From the IMG/VR virus record IMGVR_UViG_3300018420_000069, positions 1 through 30,427 of that record: DNA of 30,427 bases; one strand, 5' to 3'. Of this stretch, positions 2 through 15,579 are shown one piece after another; within the stretch, counting starts at the first letter, position 1; each line of letters begins with the position of its first letter. This DNA is from a virus (Duplodnaviria; Caudoviricetes). The position numbers and the translations under genes are program-made. The notes under the pieces were generated by a model that ran no database searches, had not been told where the DNA came from, and worked only from the letters and a program-made list of their open reading frames with translations.

Positions 2-343
2 ATGAAGGCGCAGGCAGAGATGACACGCGCCCAGATCGAGCAGGCCAAGCTCCAGAATGAGCAGATGAAGCTCCAGATCGAAGCTCAGAAGCTACAGGCT
101 CAGACAATGGGTGATCAGGCTGACAATCAGGTTGACGCATTCAACGCTGAGACTAAGCGCATGGAAACCCAGATCAAGGCCCAGCAGGCCAACGCAACCA
201 TTGACCACACGCAGATCAAGTCTTTCGGCGATCAGCTAGACAACCAGCAGAAGATGTCCGACATGATGGATGAGCAGCGCCGCAAGGCTCAGATGGCTGC
301 AATGTCCAACGCTGAGCTGATGAGGATTGCAAACGGTGGCTAA
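2..343 (+). CDS. Portal protein, C-terminal part (5'-truncated), P22-like coiled-coil barrel
   Basis: Q/A/E/M-rich coiled-coil with 'VDAFNAETKRM', typical of P22-like portal C-termini; lies upstream of scaffold and coat. Confidence 0.75.
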   Translation: MKAQAEMTRAQIEQAKLQNEQMKLQIEAQKLQAQTMGDQADNQVDAFNAETKRMETQIKAQQANATIDHTQIKSFGDQLDNQQKMSDMMDEQRRKAQMAAMSNAELMRIANGG

Positions 344-2369
344 GACCGATCAACAGCTCGCTCAGGAAGAGCTTGCCAGACAAGGCATAGACTACAAATA
401 CGGCGGAGATAATCTCTTTGGCGCATTCATGCCAGAGCGCAGGCGTATCTTGCGTCCTGAGCAAGAGCAGTTTGTTGGCTACGACAGCTCTGGTAACGCC
501 ATAATCCAGAACATCCCAGCAGAGTACGGGCCAAGCGAGGTTGATCCTTCATTTGCTCCCATTGTGCGCGGAGTTAAGAGAGGTTTGTCGTTCCTAAATG
601 ATGTCTTTCTTGGCGATGCTAACGAGCAAAACGCTGCAATTGGTCGAGCTGCAAGCGCATTGCGCGGTATGGGTGAAGGTATAGCTGACTATGCTGGCGG
701 TCAGGCGCGATCTGCTTTGGCTGGCGGCGTATCGTACAGCCCAGACACGGGACAGGTTGACAGGTTTGATCCTTTGGTTGTTATGGGCGGTGGTGGCGCT
801 CCATCTGGATCGCTGGCTTCTGGACTTGGTAGGTCACGAAGCGCACTAGATACATCGACTGCGGCAAGAATGCAGAGAGCGTTTGAGGACTTTGATTTAC
901 GGCCTGCTTACCATTATACAAATGCTTTAGAAGATGGAGGTGAGTTTACACAACTAAAACCTTCAATAGATGGCAAATATGGGCCGGGCATTTACTCGTC
1001 AAGAAATCCAGAATATGGCGAGAGGTACTTAAAAGGACAAGAAAACGCCAGAGCAATACCCATTTACATAAGAGGCGAAACGGCGCGAAAAGAAGATTGG
1101 TTTGATGCGCTAAACGAAGCAATGAATGAAGCTAAAGACATGAGACAAATGGGCATTGAGATGACAAGCCCAGAAATACGAAGGATGGCGCAAGGCTTAT
1201 TGCAAGACAAAGGTTACGACAATTTAGAATTTGACAATGAAATAGTGGTTTTTGATCCTAAAAATGTTAGGTCAGTAAACGCGCAATTTGATCCAGAACA
1301 AAGAGAAAGCGCAAATATCCTTTACTCAGGTGGCGGCAACACAGGCACAGGCGTAGCTGCTGGCTCTGCTTTGCGGCAGATGAACCCAAACCTAGACCAA
1401 TCCTATGAAGCTAGGATGCAGAGAGCGCAGGAGCAAGGATACAAGCCGGGACTTTATCACGGCGGTGTTACGGATATCAGTGAATTTGATATAAGTCGCG
1501 GAACTCCAGACTCTCATATGGGAGTGGGAGTCTACACAACAACTGGCGTACAAGACGCAAACGTAAATTATGCTGGAGAAGGCCCAGATTTAACTAATCG
1601 TTTGGAAAGAAGAGCAGAAGAGATTATTGATAGCGGAAAACTTTCTGAGGAATGGGCAGAAATTTATCGTAAAAGAGAAGTTGCAACAAGGAGAGATGTT
1701 GGTAAGGCAAGAAATGAAGCAAGATCAGATTTAGAGAATATTGCGAAAGAGATGGCAAGAGAAGAGATGAAAGATAATTTAGGTGTTGTTTACCCATTAA
1801 TGGGCAGGTCAAATAAGCCTTTTGACATTTCTGAAGGCAACGACACCTTTTTGAGATATGAATATCCTGAGCTTGATCCTAAAGATTACTTAGATGAAGC
1901 TGGCGGTGATATTGATTTAGCAAGAGATTTAGCCGGAGAGGCAAGGTATGAATTTGAGCCAGAAGGCGAGCTTGTAGACTTTTTGGAAAGTATTCAGCGT
2001 AGTTTAAGTGATAGAGAATACAGAGAGGTTGCTAGCGGCATAATGGACTCAGCGTATGATGGCGGCATTTCTGGCAAAGAGCTTGAAGATATTTACCGAA
2101 AGGCCGAAATTTACGCAGAGGATGATCTGGGAAGATTGAATCAAATGGAAATTTTCAGGCAAGGTCTTGAAGATGCTGGCTTTGATTCAATAATTCATGA
2201 CGCAAATCGTTTTAATATGCCGAATGTGGAAGGCGAAAAACACCAAATATTTTTCAGAGAAAATCAACTACGCAGCCCAAACGCCGAGTTTGACCCGCAA
2301 AACATTGACAGCGCAGACCTGTTATCAAGCAGGAGCAGGCCGATGTCTGCTTTGCGAGGAATGGCTTAA
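336..2369 (+). CDS. Polyvalent protein with two ADP-ribosyltransferase-like (ART-PolyVal type) domains
   Basis: Two copies of YH..F....G.G.Y.[ST]...GY/FD...vf.p..+RS.NA.FDP (AYHYT/GPGIYSS/GYDNLEFDNEIVVFDPKNVRS and LYHGG/GVGVYTT/GFDSIIH..HQIFFRENQLRS). GTG 336 with GAGG at 322-325 preferred over TTG 327. Confidence 0.7.
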   Translation: MAKTDQQLAQEELARQGIDYKYGGDNLFGAFMPERRRILRPEQEQFVGYDSSGNAIIQNIPAEYGPSEVDPSFAPIVRGVKRGLSFLNDVFLGDANEQNAAIGRAASALRGMGEGIADYAGGQARSALAGGVSYSPDTGQVDRFDPLVVMGGGGAPSGSLASGLGRSRSALDTSTAARMQRAFEDFDLRPAYHYTNALEDGGEFTQLKPSIDGKYGPGIYSSRNPEYGERYLKGQENARAIPIYIRGETARKEDWFDALNEAMNEAKDMRQMGIEMTSPEIRRMAQGLLQDKGYDNLEFDNEIVVFDPKNVRSVNAQFDPEQRESANILYSGGGNTGTGVAAGSALRQMNPNLDQSYEARMQRAQEQGYKPGLYHGGVTDISEFDISRGTPDSHMGVGVYTTTGVQDANVNYAGEGPDLTNRLERRAEEIIDSGKLSEEWAEIYRKREVATRRDVGKARNEARSDLENIAKEMAREEMKDNLGVVYPLMGRSNKPFDISEGNDTFLRYEYPELDPKDYLDEAGGDIDLARDLAGEARYEFEPEGELVDFLESIQRSLSDREYREVASGIMDSAYDGGISGKELEDIYRKAEIYAEDDLGRLNQMEIFRQGLEDAGFDSIIHDANRFNMPNVEGEKHQIFFRENQLRSPNAEFDPQNIDSADLLSSRSRPMSALRGMA

Positions 2370-2483: not shown

Positions 2484-3287
2484 ATGGAACCAGAAGATAC
2501 GCTCGATGAGGCTGAAGAGCTTGAAGAGGTTGAAACTGAAGGTCAGGAAACTGACTCCGAGTCATCACCGGATACTGCTGAGGAGCAGGAAGAATCCACT
2601 AGGCCGCGCTTTGACGAGGTGCAGCAGAAGGCTTTTGACAAAGCTATAGGTGAAAAGGTCTACCAGATCAAGGAACGAGATCGGGAAGTCCAAAGCCTAC
2701 AAGCTAAGTTGCAAGAGCTGGAAAGCCGCATCCCGGTGGAGCAACCGCCGCAAGTGCCTGAAACGCCTGACTTTTATTCGCTAACGGATCGAGAGATTCA
2801 GGAGCGACTGAGGCAGCGTGATGAGGCAATAGCTAAGCGAGCACAGTATGACGCACAGCAGGCAGCTTTGTTGCAGCAGCAGCAAGCCCAGCAGCAGGCG
2901 TTACAGCGCGAGCAGGTAGCTAGGCAGAACGAAAAGATCAAGAGCTACGCAGACCGAGCTGAGAAGCTGGGTGTGAAGAAGGATGATCTTCAGGTAGCAG
3001 CGAACAAGATTGCTCAGTTTGGGCTAAGCCCGATGCTGGCAGACCATCTTCTTGAATTAGACGATGGAAGTCTTGGTACGTTGTATCTTGGCGATAATCT
3101 TTTGGAGCTTGATAAGTTGGCACAAATGCCGGTGAATCAGGCGTTGTTGTATCTTAATGATCAAGTGATGCCGAATGCTAGAAAACTTAAACCTAAAGTA
3201 AATGCTGCTCCTGAGCCGCTAGATACGCCGCATGGTTCCGGTTCAAGACCGAAAGCTGGCGGCCCGAAAGGAGCAACCTTCGAATGA
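2484..3287 (+). CDS. Capsid scaffolding protein
   Basis: Acidic N-terminus, coiled-coil middle and P/G/K-rich C-terminal tail; directly upstream of the coat gene. Confidence 0.8.
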   Translation: MEPEDTLDEAEELEEVETEGQETDSESSPDTAEEQEESTRPRFDEVQQKAFDKAIGEKVYQIKERDREVQSLQAKLQELESRIPVEQPPQVPETPDFYSLTDREIQERLRQRDEAIAKRAQYDAQQAALLQQQQAQQQALQREQVARQNEKIKSYADRAEKLGVKKDDLQVAANKIAQFGLSPMLADHLLELDDGSLGTLYLGDNLLELDKLAQMPVNQALLYLNDQVMPNARKLKPKVNAAPEPLDTPHGSGSRPKAGGPKGATFE

Positions 3288-3303
3288 ATGAGGTGATCCG
3301 ATC

Positions 3304-4572
3304 ATGGCTAATAATCTTAGCAGTAATATCACTCGGAAGGTCGCGCGTGTCTTTTTGGAGGCATTCGAGTCCAGCCGAGTAGTTACAAAGACAGTTGACA
3401 CTCAACTCCTGAGTGGCAAATTCAATCCTTCAAGTGGTAGCAATGTAGACTTCAAACGTCCGCACGACTACAACTCCATCCGTACTTCTGGCGGTGATAT
3501 CTCTGCCAGCACTAAGTCAGACATCATTGCAGGTAAGGCAACTGGTACAGTCCAGAACTACTTCACCGTAGCGACCGAATGGGGCAACGTGGAAGAGGCT
3601 CTGGAGCTTGATCAGTTGGAGCAGATTCTTGCTCCTATGGCTCGCCGCATCGTGACTGACCTTGAGATTGATCTTGCTAGCTATATGCTCAAGAACTCTT
3701 CTCTGAAGTATGGTTCGCACGGTAATGCCGTTGATGCTTGGGGTGACGTAGCTGGCGCTGGCGCACTGATGGATTCCATCGGCGTTCCAATGTCTGCCGA
3801 GCGTTACTACTTGATGAATCCTTTCACCACTAGCGCACTTGCTAACGTGCAGAACGGCCTGAATGCTGCTGACCAACTAGTACGCACGGCTTGGGAGAAA
3901 GCTCAGATTTCACAGAACTTTGGTGGTATGCGAGCGCTTACTTCTAATGCTCTGGCTAGTTTTACTTCTGGCACTGGCGCTGACCGTGCAGGTACTCTGG
4001 CTTCAACTCCAGATGCTACCTACGTCACAGCTAAGGACACTATGACGCAAAACCTTGCCGTAACAGGCTTCCAAGCGTCTATGACTGTCAAAGCTGGCGA
4101 TTTGGTCACGATTGATGGTGTAAATCGTTTGAACCTTGATACTCGTCAGGCAATGATTGACGCATCTGGTGCAAACGTACTGTGGACAGGCGTTGTTACT
4201 GCTGACGTTACTCTGGACGGCTCTGGTGCTGGCACACTTGTTGTTGCAGGCCCAGCTATCCAAGAGGCTAACGGTCAGTACAACACCGTAGACACTGCAC
4301 CGACATCTGGTGATGTAATTAACATCCTTAGCGCTTCAAACACTCTGTATCAGCCAAACCTGTTCTTCACTAAGCAGGCTTTCGGACTTGGTACTGTGAA
4401 GCTGCCTAAGCTGTACTCTACTGACACTATTGCGACTACCGAGGACGGTATGAGCATCCGTGTTTCTAAGTACGCAGATGGTGATGCCAACACTCAGAAA
4501 GTACGTTTTGACTTGTTGCCTGCATACGCAACATTCAATCCGTTCATGTCTGGTCAAGGCTTCGGAGTCTAA
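3304..4572 (+). CDS. Major capsid protein, P22 coat (gp5)-like
   Basis: 422 aa; 'MANNL', 'VDFKRPHDY', 'EEALELDQLEQILAPMARRIVTDLE', 'VRFDLLPAYATFNPFMSGQGFG' match P22-type coats; SD GAGGTG upstream. Confidence 0.92.
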   Translation: MANNLSSNITRKVARVFLEAFESSRVVTKTVDTQLLSGKFNPSSGSNVDFKRPHDYNSIRTSGGDISASTKSDIIAGKATGTVQNYFTVATEWGNVEEALELDQLEQILAPMARRIVTDLEIDLASYMLKNSSLKYGSHGNAVDAWGDVAGAGALMDSIGVPMSAERYYLMNPFTTSALANVQNGLNAADQLVRTAWEKAQISQNFGGMRALTSNALASFTSGTGADRAGTLASTPDATYVTAKDTMTQNLAVTGFQASMTVKAGDLVTIDGVNRLNLDTRQAMIDASGANVLWTGVVTADVTLDGSGAGTLVVAGPAIQEANGQYNTVDTAPTSGDVINILSASNTLYQPNLFFTKQAFGLGTVKLPKLYSTDTIATTEDGMSIRVSKYADGDANTQKVRFDLLPAYATFNPFMSGQGFGV

Positions 4573-4587
4573 TTCCCACGAGGTCTT

Positions 4588-4623
4588 CGGGAGCTGCTTT
4601 GGTAGTCGGCTCCCGTTTTTTTT
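4588..4623 (+). terminator. Rho-independent terminator after the coat gene
   Basis: Stem CGGGAGCTG/CGGCTCCCG (4588-4596/4607-4615) followed by T8 (4616-4623). Confidence 0.85.
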
Positions 4624-4908
4624 ATGGCTAAACCCAGAAAAGGTAAAGCTAAAGTCAAGGTCACCGCCAGCGGTAAGAAAGTCTCCTACGGGCAGGCTGG
4701 AAAAGCCGCTGACGGTGGGCCTCGTGTTAGGCCCGGAACTAGCAAAGGCGATTCGTATTGTGCGAGATCGCTGGGAATCAAGAAGCGATTATCCAAAGAA
4801 AAGCAGAACGATCCGAACACTCCTAACAACCTAAGTCGTAAGCGCTGGAAGTGCAAAGGCGCTAAGTCGATGAAAGGCAGAGCCGCAAAAGGTGCGAAAT
4901 ATGAATAG
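4624..4908 (+). CDS. Small highly basic phage protein (DUF6321-like, SYCARS...RWKC)
   Basis: K/R-rich; 'KKVSYGQAG', 'SYCARS', 'NDPNTPNNLSRKRWKC' resemble a widespread small aquatic-phage family. Confidence 0.7.
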   Translation: MAKPRKGKAKVKVTASGKKVSYGQAGKAADGGPRVRPGTSKGDSYCARSLGIKKRLSKEKQNDPNTPNNLSRKRWKCKGAKSMKGRAAKGAKYE

Positions 4909-5083
4909 GCAAAAAGGACTCTGGGACAACATCCACGCAAAACGTAAGCGCATCAAAAGACAAAAGTCTGAAGGCAGAACGCCCGAGAGAATGAGAAGTC
5001 CCGGCGATGCAGGCGCACCGACTGCTGAGGCTCTGAAACGATCACAAAAGCGTAGAGGCCCACAAGGAGCGACATACGAATAA
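4901..5083 (+). CDS. Small basic phage protein (GLWDNIHAKRKR family)
   Basis: ATG 4901 overlaps the previous gene end; 'GLWDNIHAKRKRIK...MRSPG..GAPT' motif recurs in aquatic phages; stop overlaps the next ATG. Confidence 0.7.
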   Translation: MNRQKGLWDNIHAKRKRIKRQKSEGRTPERMRSPGDAGAPTAEALKRSQKRRGPQGATYE

Positions 5084-5565
5084 TGGCTACTGTCGCACAG
5101 GTTGCAAAAGCATCCTTACAAAGAATATTAGTACAGGCCAGCGAAGCACCGCTAGAGCCTGATGAATATAATGACTTCATCTTTGCGATGAATAACTACA
5201 TGACCGAGCTAGACGCTCAAGGTGTGTCTTTAGGATATACCGAGGTATCTGACTTAGGTGATGAGGTAACAATTCCCACAGGCGCTCTGAGAGGCTTGAT
5301 TGCCAATATGGCGATAGAGGTTGCGCCTGACTACAACGGCGTGATCTCTCAAGGTCTGGTCAAGGCTGCACGGGATGGATTTAACACAATGCGGTTGATC
5401 GGGCAGACAATGGGAGAGACCAAGAATCCTTCTACGTTGCCTATTGGTTCCGGAAATGAAGATATGCTGTATGGCTTTCCCGGTCATTTTTATCCAGACG
5501 AGGAAGCTGTCATTCTGGCAGAGACTACAGGCGCAATAGGTTTGGAGCTGAATACAAATGGTTGA
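5083..5565 (+). CDS. Head-to-tail adaptor, P22 gp4-like (packaged DNA stabilization)
   Basis: 'AKASLQRILV', 'LEPDEYNDFIFAMNNYM', 'GVSLGY', 'NMAIEVAPDY', 'PSTLPIGSGN' are gp4-family motifs. Confidence 0.85.
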   Translation: MATVAQVAKASLQRILVQASEAPLEPDEYNDFIFAMNNYMTELDAQGVSLGYTEVSDLGDEVTIPTGALRGLIANMAIEVAPDYNGVISQGLVKAARDGFNTMRLIGQTMGETKNPSTLPIGSGNEDMLYGFPGHFYPDEEAVILAETTGAIGLELNTNG

Positions 5566-7824: not shown

Positions 7825-8072
7825 CGTACAAACTAAACGTAGCTCAGCCGATAGTAGAAGGTGATGGCACTATGGCTCAGGCGTTTCGCCAGTACACGCA
7901 AGAGGTAGCTTTGAGCATACCTATTATTGGTATTGGTAGTCCTGAAGGCGTTGTAGAGGCAAGACAGTACAGTTTATATATTGATGAAACTGGCACAACT
8001 GGATCGTTGCAGTATCGAAAGATGCAGCCCAGTATTGCTGGAGACAGAACTAGAGGATGGGTTGCGGTTTGA
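7821..8072 (+). CDS. Small tail-associated hypothetical protein
   Basis: Coupled ATGA overlap; 'GSPEGVVEA..SLYID' motif; occupies the position of P22 gp26. Confidence 0.6.
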   Translation: MTYKLNVAQPIVEGDGTMAQAFRQYTQEVALSIPIIGIGSPEGVVEARQYSLYIDETGTTGSLQYRKMQPSIAGDRTRGWVAV

Positions 8073-8533
8073 TTGAAAGAACGTCTGATGAAAAGTTTAT
8101 TAGTGACTTTGTTTTGAAAAGCGAAGTATTTGATGAAATATCTGAGGACAACTTTTCAAGAGATGAATGGCAACCTGACATGAATAGCGGTTGGTTTGTT
8201 CATAAAGAAGATGATGAAGTTTGTGGTTTGTGGTTGGCTGAGCTGAGGAACGGAACGACACTAGAGATACATCCAATCGTTCCAAAGAAGCACAGAGGCA
8301 AAAAAGCCTACAAAGGTGCAAAAGAGTTTTTTAGTTGGATAACCAAAAACACAACTTACAAAAAGGTAAACGCTGAGATAGCGACTTGCTATCCGAATGC
8401 TAAATTGTTTGCTATGCAATGTGGAATGAAGGTAGAAGGCAAGATACGCGCTTCATTTCAGAAAAACGGTAAGCTGCACGATCAATGGATGTTGGGTATA
8501 ACCCGCGAAGAATTAGAGGCTCGATATGACTAA
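8057..8533 (+). CDS. GNAT-fold acetyltransferase-like protein (P22 gp14/DUF2824-like)
   Basis: 'LEIHPIVPKKHRGK', 'GMKVEGKIRASFQKNGKLHDQWMLGITREE'; syntenic with ejection genes; start may be TTG 8069. Confidence 0.75.
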   Translation: MGCGLIERTSDEKFISDFVLKSEVFDEISEDNFSRDEWQPDMNSGWFVHKEDDEVCGLWLAELRNGTTLEIHPIVPKKHRGKKAYKGAKEFFSWITKNTTYKKVNAEIATCYPNAKLFAMQCGMKVEGKIRASFQKNGKLHDQWMLGITREELEARYD

Positions 8534-12706: not shown

Positions 12707-13969
12707 ATGGTTGATGCATACGATCCTAACAAAATAGAAAACACAGAATTTACATCTCGCTCTGGCATGAGCAGCAGAGATGCTTTTTCAGTGCCGCGAG
12801 CTAGAGTAAGCGCCAGACAACTACCTAGAGATATTTTGCAAGCGGTTGGTAGTGGTGTTCTTTCTGGTTTTGGTGTAGATCGCCCGTTGAGAGTAGAGAA
12901 AAGACAAGCGCAGCTTACTCAAGGAACAATTCAAGATGCTCGTCAAATTAAAAGAGCTTTAGAAAACGAAAACACCAATGAAGCTATAAGCATATTAGTT
13001 GACAGAATGAACATCTTGCATCGAATGGGTGAAGATGAATCTGACACTAGAATGTTGCGTGATGCGTTAGTTGCTGGAAGACCTGACGTTGTTATGAGAG
13101 AAGTAAACACTTTCTTAAACAACCTTCCGGTAGAGTATATCGATCCTGATATGGTTACAGAGCAAGGCCAAATGATAAGCCGCAGAGCTGGTGGAGCGCC
13201 TACTGCTGAGGCTGTTGGTGGGTTTGAGGTCAAGCCTGAAGAGCAATATAGGCCACTCACAGAAGGCGAAATAGCTTTGTATCGCCTTGATCCAAAAGGT
13301 TCTTATCGGATGAACGTAAGGACTGGAAAGCCAGAAAGAATAGGTTCTGGTGGAACTACTATTAATATGCCGCAAGTAGGAAGCATTCCTACCGGTTATA
13401 GAGCTGTATACAACGATCAAGGTCAGGTAGAAAGCTATGAGTTGATACCGGGCAGTCCAGAAGCGCAACAACAAGCTGAATCAGAGTCCCAAGAACAGCA
13501 GCGGACAGGACAACGCGCAACTTATGTTGATGTTGTTTTAGACGAGATTTCATCTGTAAGAAACATGGTGGAGAATCAAGGCCCGCTTACTCCTGTGACT
13601 GGATTTATGGGCGCTAGAATGCGTTCAGTAGAAGGATCGCCTGCCTTTGATATGGCGCAAAGAATTAGCACTATCAAAGGAAACACAGCATTCACACGAT
13701 TAGAGCAAATGAGAGAAGCCAGCAAAACTGGCGGTGCGTTAGGAAGCATTACAGAAGGAGAATTGGAGCTTTTATCTAATACTCTAGGTGCGTTGAATCC
13801 AGATATGTCTGATGCAGAGTTTTTGCGTACTCTGACAAGATTAGAGGAAACGTATACCAATATAATGAACAAGCTGATGCAAGAGCCAGAGATAGCCAGA
13901 CAATATGGTATTGAGGTTCCATCACTACAAAACGATCCTCTTGATTTATTTTCTCCGAGAAGACCATGA
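12707..13969 (+). CDS. Putative ejection protein (gp20-like position)
   Basis: C-terminal 'LEQMREASKTGGALGSITEGELELL..LGAL' motif seen in podovirus internal proteins; synteny. Confidence 0.6.
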   Translation: MVDAYDPNKIENTEFTSRSGMSSRDAFSVPRARVSARQLPRDILQAVGSGVLSGFGVDRPLRVEKRQAQLTQGTIQDARQIKRALENENTNEAISILVDRMNILHRMGEDESDTRMLRDALVAGRPDVVMREVNTFLNNLPVEYIDPDMVTEQGQMISRRAGGAPTAEAVGGFEVKPEEQYRPLTEGEIALYRLDPKGSYRMNVRTGKPERIGSGGTTINMPQVGSIPTGYRAVYNDQGQVESYELIPGSPEAQQQAESESQEQQRTGQRATYVDVVLDEISSVRNMVENQGPLTPVTGFMGARMRSVEGSPAFDMAQRISTIKGNTAFTRLEQMREASKTGGALGSITEGELELLSNTLGALNPDMSDAEFLRTLTRLEETYTNIMNKLMQEPEIARQYGIEVPSLQNDPLDLFSPRRP

Positions 13970-15579
13970 GCGAAAAATTAGATTTATTTAAGCAAAGATA
14001 TCCTGATTATCAGAATGTCTCAAATGCTCAGTTAGCTCACGCATTATGGAATGCAGAGTATAAAGACAAAATGCCAATGGGTATTTTTGCTGATTCTCTG
14101 GAGCTTACGGATGATGAGTTTGGTGAAATGATCGGTTTTGCAAGTCAAAGCGGATACGAGCCAACCACGATGTCTGGTGGCGGCGTTACTCCGGGCGCTA
14201 GAGCCGCAACTGCTGCCAGAGGATTTTCTATGGGAGCTGCGGAAAATGCTGCCGCAGCGTTGATGGCAACTAAAGATAGAGTTGGCAGGTTTGTAAGAGG
14301 AGAAGAACAAAAACCTTTTGGCGAAGATTTTAATGATTATCTTGGTCTTACTAGAAATCTTATTGAAGAATATCAAAAAGAACGGCCTTACGAGGCTTTC
14401 TTTATGGAAATGGTTCCGGCTTTAGCTTCAGGCATTGGTGTAGAAAGAGCTATAGCTGGAGGAGTTCCAAGAGTAGCTATGGGAACATCACCAAGCGTTG
14501 CAAGAACAGCGGCAACTTCTGGAACCGCTGGCGGAGTTTACGGATTTGCAACTGGAGAGCCGGGAGAAAGGTTAGAAAGTGCTTTTGAATTAGCTATACC
14601 TTCAACATTTTTTGGTGGTGTCAGTCAAATAGGATTAAATTTTGCCGCTCCAGCCATAAGAAGTATTGGTAGGTCTTTTGGCAGAAGAATGCAGCAGTTT
14701 GACAGCAATCCTACTGTAGAGGCTGCTAGAGCTTTGAAAAACGACATCTATGAAAAAGCTACCAATGCCGGAATAGTTTATGACGTTCCTGCAATGAGAA
14801 GTCTTTACAACAAAGCAAGAAGGTTTGTTGCCGATGAAGGCACATATAGTCCTGAAGTAGACGATCAAATGACTGCTGCTTTGAAGATGTTAAAAAATTA
14901 TTCAAAAAAACCGCAAAATCTTATTCAGTTAGAAAAGCTCAGAAGAGCAATGTACGACAGATATAGGAAAAGTAATTATACGGATCAATCTATACGAGAG
15001 CTAACACATATAATAGATGAAACTATTGAAAATTTTGGAAGTGGAGATGCCAATATAATTAAGTCTGCAAGATTGGCTAATTCTCGATTCAAAAAAGCTG
15101 AGCTGATAAACGAAGCGTTTGAAAAAGCGCAAAGGTCAGCCGGCTCTTCTGGTTCTGGTGGGAATGTAATCAATAGGTACAAACAAGTAATCAACAGCAT
15201 ACTAAATGACAAGAAACAAATGAGGTTTTTTACTAAAGAAGAAGAAAAAGCAATGCTTGACTTTGTTAATTTTACAACTGGAGAGCAGTTGTCACGGCTT
15301 GGCGCGAAACTTGATCCAACTTCAGGTGGTTTAATGCAAGCATTAGCAATAGGTGGCGCATATGCTGATCTTGGAACTACAGCATCAATTGCAATACCTG
15401 CTTCAATTGTTAGAAGAGGATTAGAACAGAAAACTACAGAAGGAGCTGAGGCTCTTGTAGAGAGAATGGCGACAGGACAAATGCCAACAACAAGAGCGGT
15501 AAGAACACCATCAACAGTTATGCCGCAAGCAATAGAAGAGTATGAAAGAGAGACAGAGCGTTTAAGAGGCGATATATAA
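13966..15579 (+). CDS. Putative ejection protein (gp16-like position)
   Basis: N-terminal 'FKQRYPDY..VSNAQLAHAL', Gly/Ala hydrophobic stretches, helical C-terminal part; synteny. Confidence 0.6.
   Translation: MSEKLDLFKQRYPDYQNVSNAQLAHALWNAEYKDKMPMGIFADSLELTDDEFGEMIGFASQSGYEPTTMSGGGVTPGARAATAARGFSMGAAENAAAALMATKDRVGRFVRGEEQKPFGEDFNDYLGLTRNLIEEYQKERPYEAFFMEMVPALASGIGVERAIAGGVPRVAMGTSPSVARTAATSGTAGGVYGFATGEPGERLESAFELAIPSTFFGGVSQIGLNFAAPAIRSIGRSFGRRMQQFDSNPTVEAARALKNDIYEKATNAGIVYDVPAMRSLYNKARRFVADEGTYSPEVDDQMTAALKMLKNYSKKPQNLIQLEKLRRAMYDRYRKSNYTDQSIRELTHIIDETIENFGSGDANIIKSARLANSRFKKAELINEAFEKAQRSAGSSGSGGNVINRYKQVINSILNDKKQMRFFTKEEEKAMLDFVNFTTGEQLSRLGAKLDPTSGGLMQALAIGGAYADLGTTASIAIPASIVRRGLEQKTTEGAEALVERMATGQMPTTRAVRTPSTVMPQAIEEYERETERLRGDI

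What the first reader, a model, noticed from the sequence alone, without database searches (positions are those of the whole stretch)
3259..5083. Shared C-terminal tag on the scaffold and two small basic proteins: a possible capsid cargo-loading signal
Seen: three otherwise unrelated head-module proteins end in the same motif. The scaffold ends GPKGATFE*, 4624-4908 ends AAKGAKYE*, and 4901-5083 ends GPQGATYE*. Codons and stop codons differ (GCA/GCG, ACC/ACA, TTC/TAT/TAC; TGA/TAG/TAA), which points to protein-level conservation. Known: in P22 the extreme C-terminus of the scaffold binds the coat, and fusing it to other proteins loads them into procapsids. Encapsulin cargo peptides work similarly. 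Inference: the two very basic proteins have acquired a scaffold-mimicking tag that packages them into the head, for example as DNA-condensing or injected proteins. This would be a natural encapsulin-like targeting system in a P22-like phage. Caveat: AAGGAG/AAGGT in the motif can double as a Shine-Dalgarno for the next gene, although the coat gene has its own separate SD.
Basis: partly seen in the sequence, partly recalled or inferred. Interest (0 to 1): 0.85.

Follow-up and report, generated by a model that had tools for sequence, protein, structure and literature searches.

The report
Scaffold-tail address tag on phage mini-proteins
In this uncultured Sf6-like phage and its relatives, at least five unrelated tiny, very basic proteins end in the same few amino acids as the head scaffolding protein while their homologues in other phages do not, so the tag likely docks them on the inside of the assembling capsid as cargo.

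Summary
Observation confirmed. The scaffold, protein A (4624-4908) and protein B (4901-5083) end GATFE, GAKYE and GATYE. Beside this Sf6-type coat, A ends [FY]E in 89 of 89 copies and B in 81 of 82; in other phage lineages in 0 of 54 and 0 of 14, though untagged A can be 93% identical. Three further unrelated basic families in the same variable cassette behave alike (54 of 54 against 0 of 30). All four Phe/Tyr codons, both Glu codons and all stops occur, so the core x-x-[FY]-E-COOH is kept as protein; the upstream Gly is partly a Shine-Dalgarno effect. Tagged A is not one clade (AU p 0.016). Best reading: a minimal scaffold-mimic tag that binds the coat site and loads small basic proteins into procapsids (0.65). 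Binding and packaging are untested; the complex predictor was not available. Two cassette families are untagged, and residue-level co-variation with the scaffold was not shown. Closest known: T4 capsid targeting sequence and SaPI1 CpmB. This scan noted the same tag earlier in two related genomes.

The parts
2484..3287 (+). Head scaffolding protein, 267 aa, acidic (pI 4.6), helical body, last 34 residues without predicted secondary structure
   Evidence: phrog_8865 E 3.6e-20; model helices end at residue 233; pI
3261..3287 (+). Scaffold C-terminal motif GPKGATFE plus stop
   Evidence: 116 of 120 listed scaffold homologues end [FY]E
3304..4572 (+). Sf6-type (P22-like) coat protein, 422 aa; inferred receptor of the tag
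   Evidence: PF11651 E 2.2e-70; 47% identity to Sf6 gp5; model TM 0.82-0.83 to Sf6 coat
4588..4623 (+). Hairpin plus T-run right after the coat gene, likely an intrinsic terminator upstream of the cassette
   Evidence: -18.1 kcal/mol, z -3.57; similar in 32 of 58 distinct post-coat stretches; missed by the consensus scan
4624..4908 (+). Small basic protein A, 94 aa, pI 10.8, tagged (AKGAKYE)
   Evidence: weak PHROG matches 4689/3477/11180 of unknown function
4882..4908 (+). Tail of A; its Tyr-Glu codons also hold the start codon of B
4901..5083 (+). Small basic protein B, 60 aa, pI 11.5, tagged (GPQGATYE)
   Evidence: phrog_16028 E 3.7e-14, unknown function
5057..5083 (+). Tail of B; GGAG doubles as likely Shine-Dalgarno, stop overlaps adaptor ATG
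5083..5565 (+). Head-tail adaptor (P22 gp4-like), downstream border of the variable cassette; untagged
   Evidence: PF11650, phrog_637; 0 of 141 copies tagged

Best explanation
The scaffold of this Sf6-type phage group ends in a short motif G-A-x-[FY]-E-COOH, and unrelated small basic proteins in a variable cassette between coat and adaptor genes carry a copy of it, which likely binds the same site on the inner coat surface and would load them into the procapsid. Shown: the motif, its protein-level conservation, its restriction to phages with this coat, its spread over five or more families. Inferred: the scaffold tail is the coat-binding element (by analogy with P22 and 80alpha); the copies use the same site; the terminator after the coat gene keeps cargo below scaffold levels; the basic bodies then bind the incoming DNA (charge neutralisation or co-ejection).
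For: Tag tallies beside this coat versus elsewhere: A 89/89 vs 0/54, B 81/82 vs 0/14, C 28/28 vs 0/6, D 14/14 vs 0/11, E 12/12 vs 0/13; coat, adaptor, portal, closure and three other genes 0. Adaptor-anchored metagenome set: 180 of 194. Untagged A up to 93% identical to window A. Whole records of 9 untagged A loci lack this coat, positive control 1 of 1 has it. A or B homologues in 5 of 5 named phage records checked are untagged. In 76 of 108 distinct cargo ends the aromatic codon was not assigned to the next start, and TAC, TTT, TTC, TAT all occur. Tagged A rejected as one clade, p-AU 0.0158. Motif conserved in cultured scaffolds: H6/1 KGAKFE, Sf6 PGAKIE, APSE-1 PGAMIE, phiSG1 PGATIE. Scaffold C-termini bind coat in P22 (PMC12005531) and 80alpha, where CpmB mimics the tail (PMC5644958).
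Against: Families G (0 of 16) and H (0 of 54) sit in the same cassette untagged. 14 of 194 family members in the metagenome set end otherwise (TLE, YA, YT, YD, one likely break). Where cargo ends L-E, the same genome's scaffold still ends F-E. The GNAT gene ends YE in 5 of 20 copies and YD in the window through a start-codon overlap, showing overlap alone can produce YE. Two to four residues are a far smaller contact than the 16-residue 80alpha hook or the P22 fragments used for loading. The cassette is missing from some close relatives (L150, L152) and from the six cultured Sf6-type phages looked at. No proteomic evidence that any of these families is in a virion was found.
Confidence: 0.65

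Rival explanations
1. The tag is a protein-level signal but its receptor is not the coat: it binds portal, the scaffold core, or a host or phage protease or modifying enzyme (for example to clear or protect these proteins).
For: No binding partner was determined here. The P22 scaffold C-terminal region also contacts portal (PMC12005531); T4 internal proteins enter via the core (PMC9026906). Coat columns that track tail residues are confounded by phylogeny.
Against: Five cargo families would compete for only 12 portal subunits; the tag tracks a viral coat lineage rather than any known host; no protease gene was recognised among 34 window proteins scanned (record 87% complete).
Confidence: 0.15
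2. The tagged proteins bind the coat site as assembly modulators or competitors (CpmB-like), tuning procapsid assembly or interfering with co-infecting relatives, and leave with the scaffold instead of staying as cargo.
For: CpmB precedent. The cassette is dispensable and variable.
Against: The bodies are unrelated, highly basic (pI 10.8, 11.5) and occur untagged in head regions of other phages, which fits a nucleic-acid-binding job independent of the tag.
Confidence: 0.12
3. The shared ends are a by-product of translational coupling: Shine-Dalgarno and overlapping start codons force G-A and Y-E.
For: 22 of 108 distinct cargo ends hold the next ATG in the Tyr-Glu codons; Gly at -5 occurs in 41 of 58 TAATG junctions against 6 of 15 with a separate start; some TTT-GAG ends may hold a TTG start; GNAT control 5 of 20.
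Against: [FY]E persists with TAC and TTC codons and with separate starts; 76 of 79 distinct scaffold ends have a separate coat start; other overlapping genes of the operon are never tagged.
Confidence: 0.05
4. The tails are relics of gene capture by recombination with the scaffold gene's 3' end and have no function.
For: The three tails share DNA words; such recombination may be how tags arise.
Against: Third codon positions and stops vary freely while aromatic and Glu stay fixed; tails are often reduced to ATFE, ARYE, PRFE with no DNA likeness beyond the codons.
Confidence: 0.03

Closest known systems
Phage T4 capsid targeting sequence (CTS) of internal proteins IPI, IPII, IPIII (PMC9026906, passages)
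   Same: A short shared peptide on small, basic, poorly conserved proteins; the review proposes it as a way to bring varied proteins into the head.
   Different: CTS is N-terminal, 10 residues, removed by protease gp21 and directs proteins to the core; here the tag is C-terminal, 2-6 residues, copies the scaffold's own end, and no protease was recognised.
SaPI1 CpmB and 80alpha scaffolding protein, shared RIIK helix-and-hook (PMC5644958, passages)
   Same: A second protein copies the scaffold C-terminus to reach the coat's scaffold site.
   Different: CpmB is one parasite-encoded alternative scaffold using 16 residues with a helix; here five or more of the phage's own families carry a minimal non-helical tail.
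P22 scaffolding protein hook and engineered SP fusions (PMC12005531; PMC9962691; passages)
   Same: P22-like coat fold; C-terminal scaffold region binds coat; fusing it loads cargo.
   Different: P22 hook is residues 268-303 with basic Arg293/Lys296 on an acidic N-arm; loading is engineered with fragments of 65 residues or more. Here the end is aromatic-Glu on a flexible linker and the fusions are natural.
Sf6/HK620/APSE head module
   Same: Coat 47% identical, same gene order, scaffold ends PGAKIE/PGAMIE.
   Different: Sf6 has only the untagged gene 6 protein between coat and adaptor; scaffold bodies do not align pairwise.
Encapsulin cargo-loading peptides (recalled, no call)
   Same: Short terminal peptide directs cargo to an HK97-fold shell.
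   Different: Cellular compartment without scaffold or genome; no sequence comparison was made.

Membership tests
Sf6-type P22-like podovirus head module | P22-family coat with Sf6-like fold | tested here: met
   PF11651; TM 0.82-0.83 to Sf6 coat
Sf6-type P22-like podovirus head module | Order scaffold, coat, gp4-like adaptor, gp10-like closure, gp14-like, ejection genes | tested here: met
   compared with Sf6
T4 capsid targeting sequence | Shared short peptide on unrelated small basic proteins | tested here: met
T4 capsid targeting sequence | N-terminal position, cleaved by a prohead protease | tested here: not met
   tag is at the C-terminus; no protease family among 34 proteins scanned, record 87% complete
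T4 capsid targeting sequence | Sufficient to package a foreign protein | not testable with these tools
   needs a bench test
80alpha SP / CpmB helix-and-hook mimicry | Non-scaffold protein shares the scaffold's C-terminal motif | tested here: met
80alpha SP / CpmB helix-and-hook mimicry | RIIK motif preceded by an amphipathic helix | tested here: not met
   motif is GAx[FY]E; no helix in scaffold residues 234-267 of a monomer model, pLDDT 55-57 there
80alpha SP / CpmB helix-and-hook mimicry | Both tails bind the same coat site | not tested
P22 scaffold hook | C-terminal helical hook with Arg/Lys binding an acidic N-arm | tested here: not met
   coat N-arm is basic in most relatives (R11, K12, R15)
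Encapsulin cargo-loading peptide | Cellular encapsulin shell gene without portal, scaffold or tail | tested here: not met
   complete phage morphogenesis module

The most novel reading that the evidence does not exclude
A natural plug-in cargo system: a four-residue free C-terminal tail copied from the scaffold is sufficient to load any small protein into Sf6-type procapsids, mobile basic mini-proteins gain it on entering this lineage and lack it elsewhere, and other phage lineages use other short labels for the same families.
Probability: 0.5. Interest if true: 0.85.

Novelty: new variant of a known kind. Interest (0 to 1): 0.7.

Why it matters
It names a testable coat-binding motif for Sf6-type scaffolds, for which no solved relative was found. 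It gives a location and an experimental handle for widespread unknown-function families of aquatic phages (about 2400 stored stretches estimated for patterns of A alone). It would answer how a protease-free P22-like head picks internal proteins, and a 4-6 residue loading tag would be far smaller than the P22 scaffold fragments now used for VLP loading.

Tried and rejected
Complex prediction of coat with the B tail: tool not available, no result. Profile search of representatives: machine busy, no result. Atlas: A matched only hypothetical viral clusters, with DUF6321 at 0.89 as a lead, no structure; no answer for B. Pfam: no family for A or B; D weak DUF5872, G weak DUF6321, both below cut-off. 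No solved scaffold relative. Coat-versus-tail mutual information (69 pairs) ranked K39, L278, T28, R275, D49, K12, F220, R11 highest, but the non-aromatic group is 8 rows from few clades, so it is not used as support. Distant coats from the Vibrio 234P9 query (18 loci) showed no tagged cassette, so gave no co-variation test. RNA runs: contigs from four metatranscriptomes cover parts of A and B but contigs cannot show expression level or strand. Promoter/terminator scan at chance level. Four MAG contigs hold the coat (three Gammaproteobacteria, one Dehalococcoidia): too weak to name a host. Paper searches found no description of this tag; the library lacks most subscription papers. PMC12749128 passages showed no tail mimicry; PMC10575957 main-text passages and 3 supplements had no virion proteomics terms. 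Trees rest on 72 and 44 columns with 8 and 13 rows skipped by a pattern filter.

Full report
Setting. The window is an 87% complete virus record of 30,427 bases. It holds a P22-like morphogenesis module: scaffold 2484-3287 (phrog_8865), coat 3304-4572 (PF11651), adaptor 5083-5565, head closure, a gp14-like gene and ejection genes. The coat is Sf6-type: 57.5% identical to Pseudoalteromonas phage H6/1 and 47% to Sf6, HK620 and APSE; its model (pLDDT 81.9) matches the Sf6 coat with TM 0.82-0.83.

Observation. The three ends are as reported. A (94 aa, pI 10.8) and B (60 aa, pI 11.5) share only their last 14 residues. Among 1083 distinct other ORF ends in the fetched loci 5 end [FY]E and none GAx[FY]E.

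The tag follows the coat, not the protein. I fetched loci with A, the window coat, the H6/1 coat and the Vibrio 234P9 coat and sorted 263 sequences (window included) by presence of an Sf6-type coat (190 have it). Ends in [FY]E, with coat versus without: A 89/89 vs 0/54 (distinct ends 17/17 vs 0/18), B 81/82 vs 0/14 (33/34 vs 0/14), and three further unrelated basic families found in the same cassette, C 28/28 vs 0/6, D 14/14 vs 0/11, E 12/12 vs 0/13. These counts include near-identical and twice-fetched contigs, so they are not independent events; the untagged sets come almost wholly from the A query. Untagged A reaches 93% identity to window A and simply stops after the shared core. In 25 of 55 untagged A loci another capsid or scaffold type is visible, in 30 none; whole records of 9 untagged loci (2 at least 90% complete) lack this coat, and a tagged control has it. 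Five named phage records with A or B (P-SCSP1u, S-TIM5, CRP-7, 199E37-1, a Manatee Spring phage) are untagged. Coat, portal, adaptor, closure and three other genes are never tagged. A second set of 117 metagenome loci picked by the DNA of the adaptor start, blind to the upstream gene, gave A 61/61, B 69/73, C 41/48, D 3/3, E 6/9; it overlaps the first set in part. The 14 exceptions end TLE, YA, YT, YD or at a likely break. On a tree of 66 A cores the label needs 5 changes (bootstrap 5-8; starred branches force only 1), and one clade of tagged A is rejected (p-AU 0.0158). The tag was therefore gained or lost more than once as genes moved; direction is not known.

Protein or DNA signal. Of 108 distinct cargo ends, 22 hold the next ATG in the Tyr-Glu codons, 58 are TAATG junctions, 3 ATGA, 15 have a separate start, 10 were unassigned. 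Outside the first class the aromatic codon is TAC, TTT, TTC or TAT, and Glu is GAA 56, GAG 52 overall. A few TTT-GAG ends may hold a TTG start. The cargo consensus is [GK]-[AP]-[TKR]-[YF]-E; the scaffold consensus G-A-[TK]-[FY]-E. The gp14-like gene ends YE in 5 of 20 copies and YD in the window, which shows what overlap alone can do.

The scaffold tail. 116 of 120 listed homologues end [FY]E. Cultured relatives end KGAKFE (H6/1), PGAKIE (Sf6), PGAMIE (APSE-1), PGATIE (phiSG1), PDAVIK (ZP9), PGTVFI (234P9), and none has a tagged gene between coat and adaptor. A monomer model puts the last helix at 217-233 and leaves 234-267 unstructured at low confidence: a short linear motif on a linker, not a P22 hook. 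Co-variation is weak: in one sub-clade with an altered coat N-arm some scaffolds end VTVE or VSVE and cargo ends TLE or MLE, but the genomes with such cargo have scaffolds ending FE.

Mechanism. In P22 the C-terminal hook binds the coat N-arm (PMC12005531, passages) and scaffold fragments load fused cargo (PMC9962691, passages); in 80alpha the last 16 residues bind coat and SaPI1 CpmB mimics them (PMC5644958, passages). I infer that GAx[FY]E-COOH is the coat-binding end of Sf6-type scaffolds and that the cassette proteins use the same site. A hairpin and T-run after the coat stop (z -3.57; 32 of 58 related stretches) would keep cargo scarcer than scaffold. What the cargo does is a further inference: basic, interchangeable, dispensable proteins (cassette empty in L150 and L152) fit DNA charge neutralisation or co-ejection, as for T4 internal proteins (PMC9026906, passages). 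No binding, packaging or virion proteomics evidence exists in my calls. Against a blanket rule, families G (0/16) and the Sf6 gene-6-like H (0/54) share the cassette untagged.

Verdict. A real, lineage-specific protein motif (about 0.93). Coat-site cargo tag 0.65; other receptor 0.15; transient assembly modulator 0.12; coupling artefact 0.05; relic 0.03. It works like T4 CTS and CpmB mimicry but fails membership of both, so it is a new variant of a known kind. Nine paper searches found no description; most subscription papers and bioRxiv supplements are outside the library. This scan reported the same tag in two related genomes and similar tags in other lineages; those notes are unchecked and are not counted as support.

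Noticed in passing
L264:2208-3168 (cyanophage S-TIM5): The A homologue and its two upstream neighbours, one annotated as virion structural, share a different short motif P[ED]GW near their ends; possibly another lineage's address label.
   Followed up: no
P0129-P0166: B homologues from other lineages carry other recurring short motifs (AKGG/AMGG; FKMKSPL), and some are fused to further small modules, one E-like.
   Followed up: no
window 327-2369: 680-aa protein with an ART-PolyVal domain (PF18760, E 3.2e-11) between portal and scaffold; present in only some relatives and untagged (0 of 27).
   Followed up: partly
window 8057-8533: gp14-like GNAT gene ends ARYD here and ARYE in 5 of 20 copies; its Tyr-Asp codons hold the next start codon.
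   Followed up: partly
L030:5001-5452: A complete 35.8-kb phage without this coat has A and B adjacent in the window's order, both untagged; its B groups with tagged B, a candidate for tag loss on transfer.
   Followed up: partly
L241:5568-5801, L289:4729-4944: A sixth basic family ending GMLE or GTLE in a sub-clade with an altered coat N-arm.
   Followed up: partly
L181, L196, L197, L200, L214, L218 after the coat gene: Basic 160-260 aa genes inserted right after the coat gene in several relatives, possibly homing endonucleases; not annotated.
   Followed up: no
window 13966-15579: 537-aa protein after the ejection genes matches phrog_21712 labelled major head protein (E 2e-16) although the coat is elsewhere; the label is probably wrong.
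   Followed up: no
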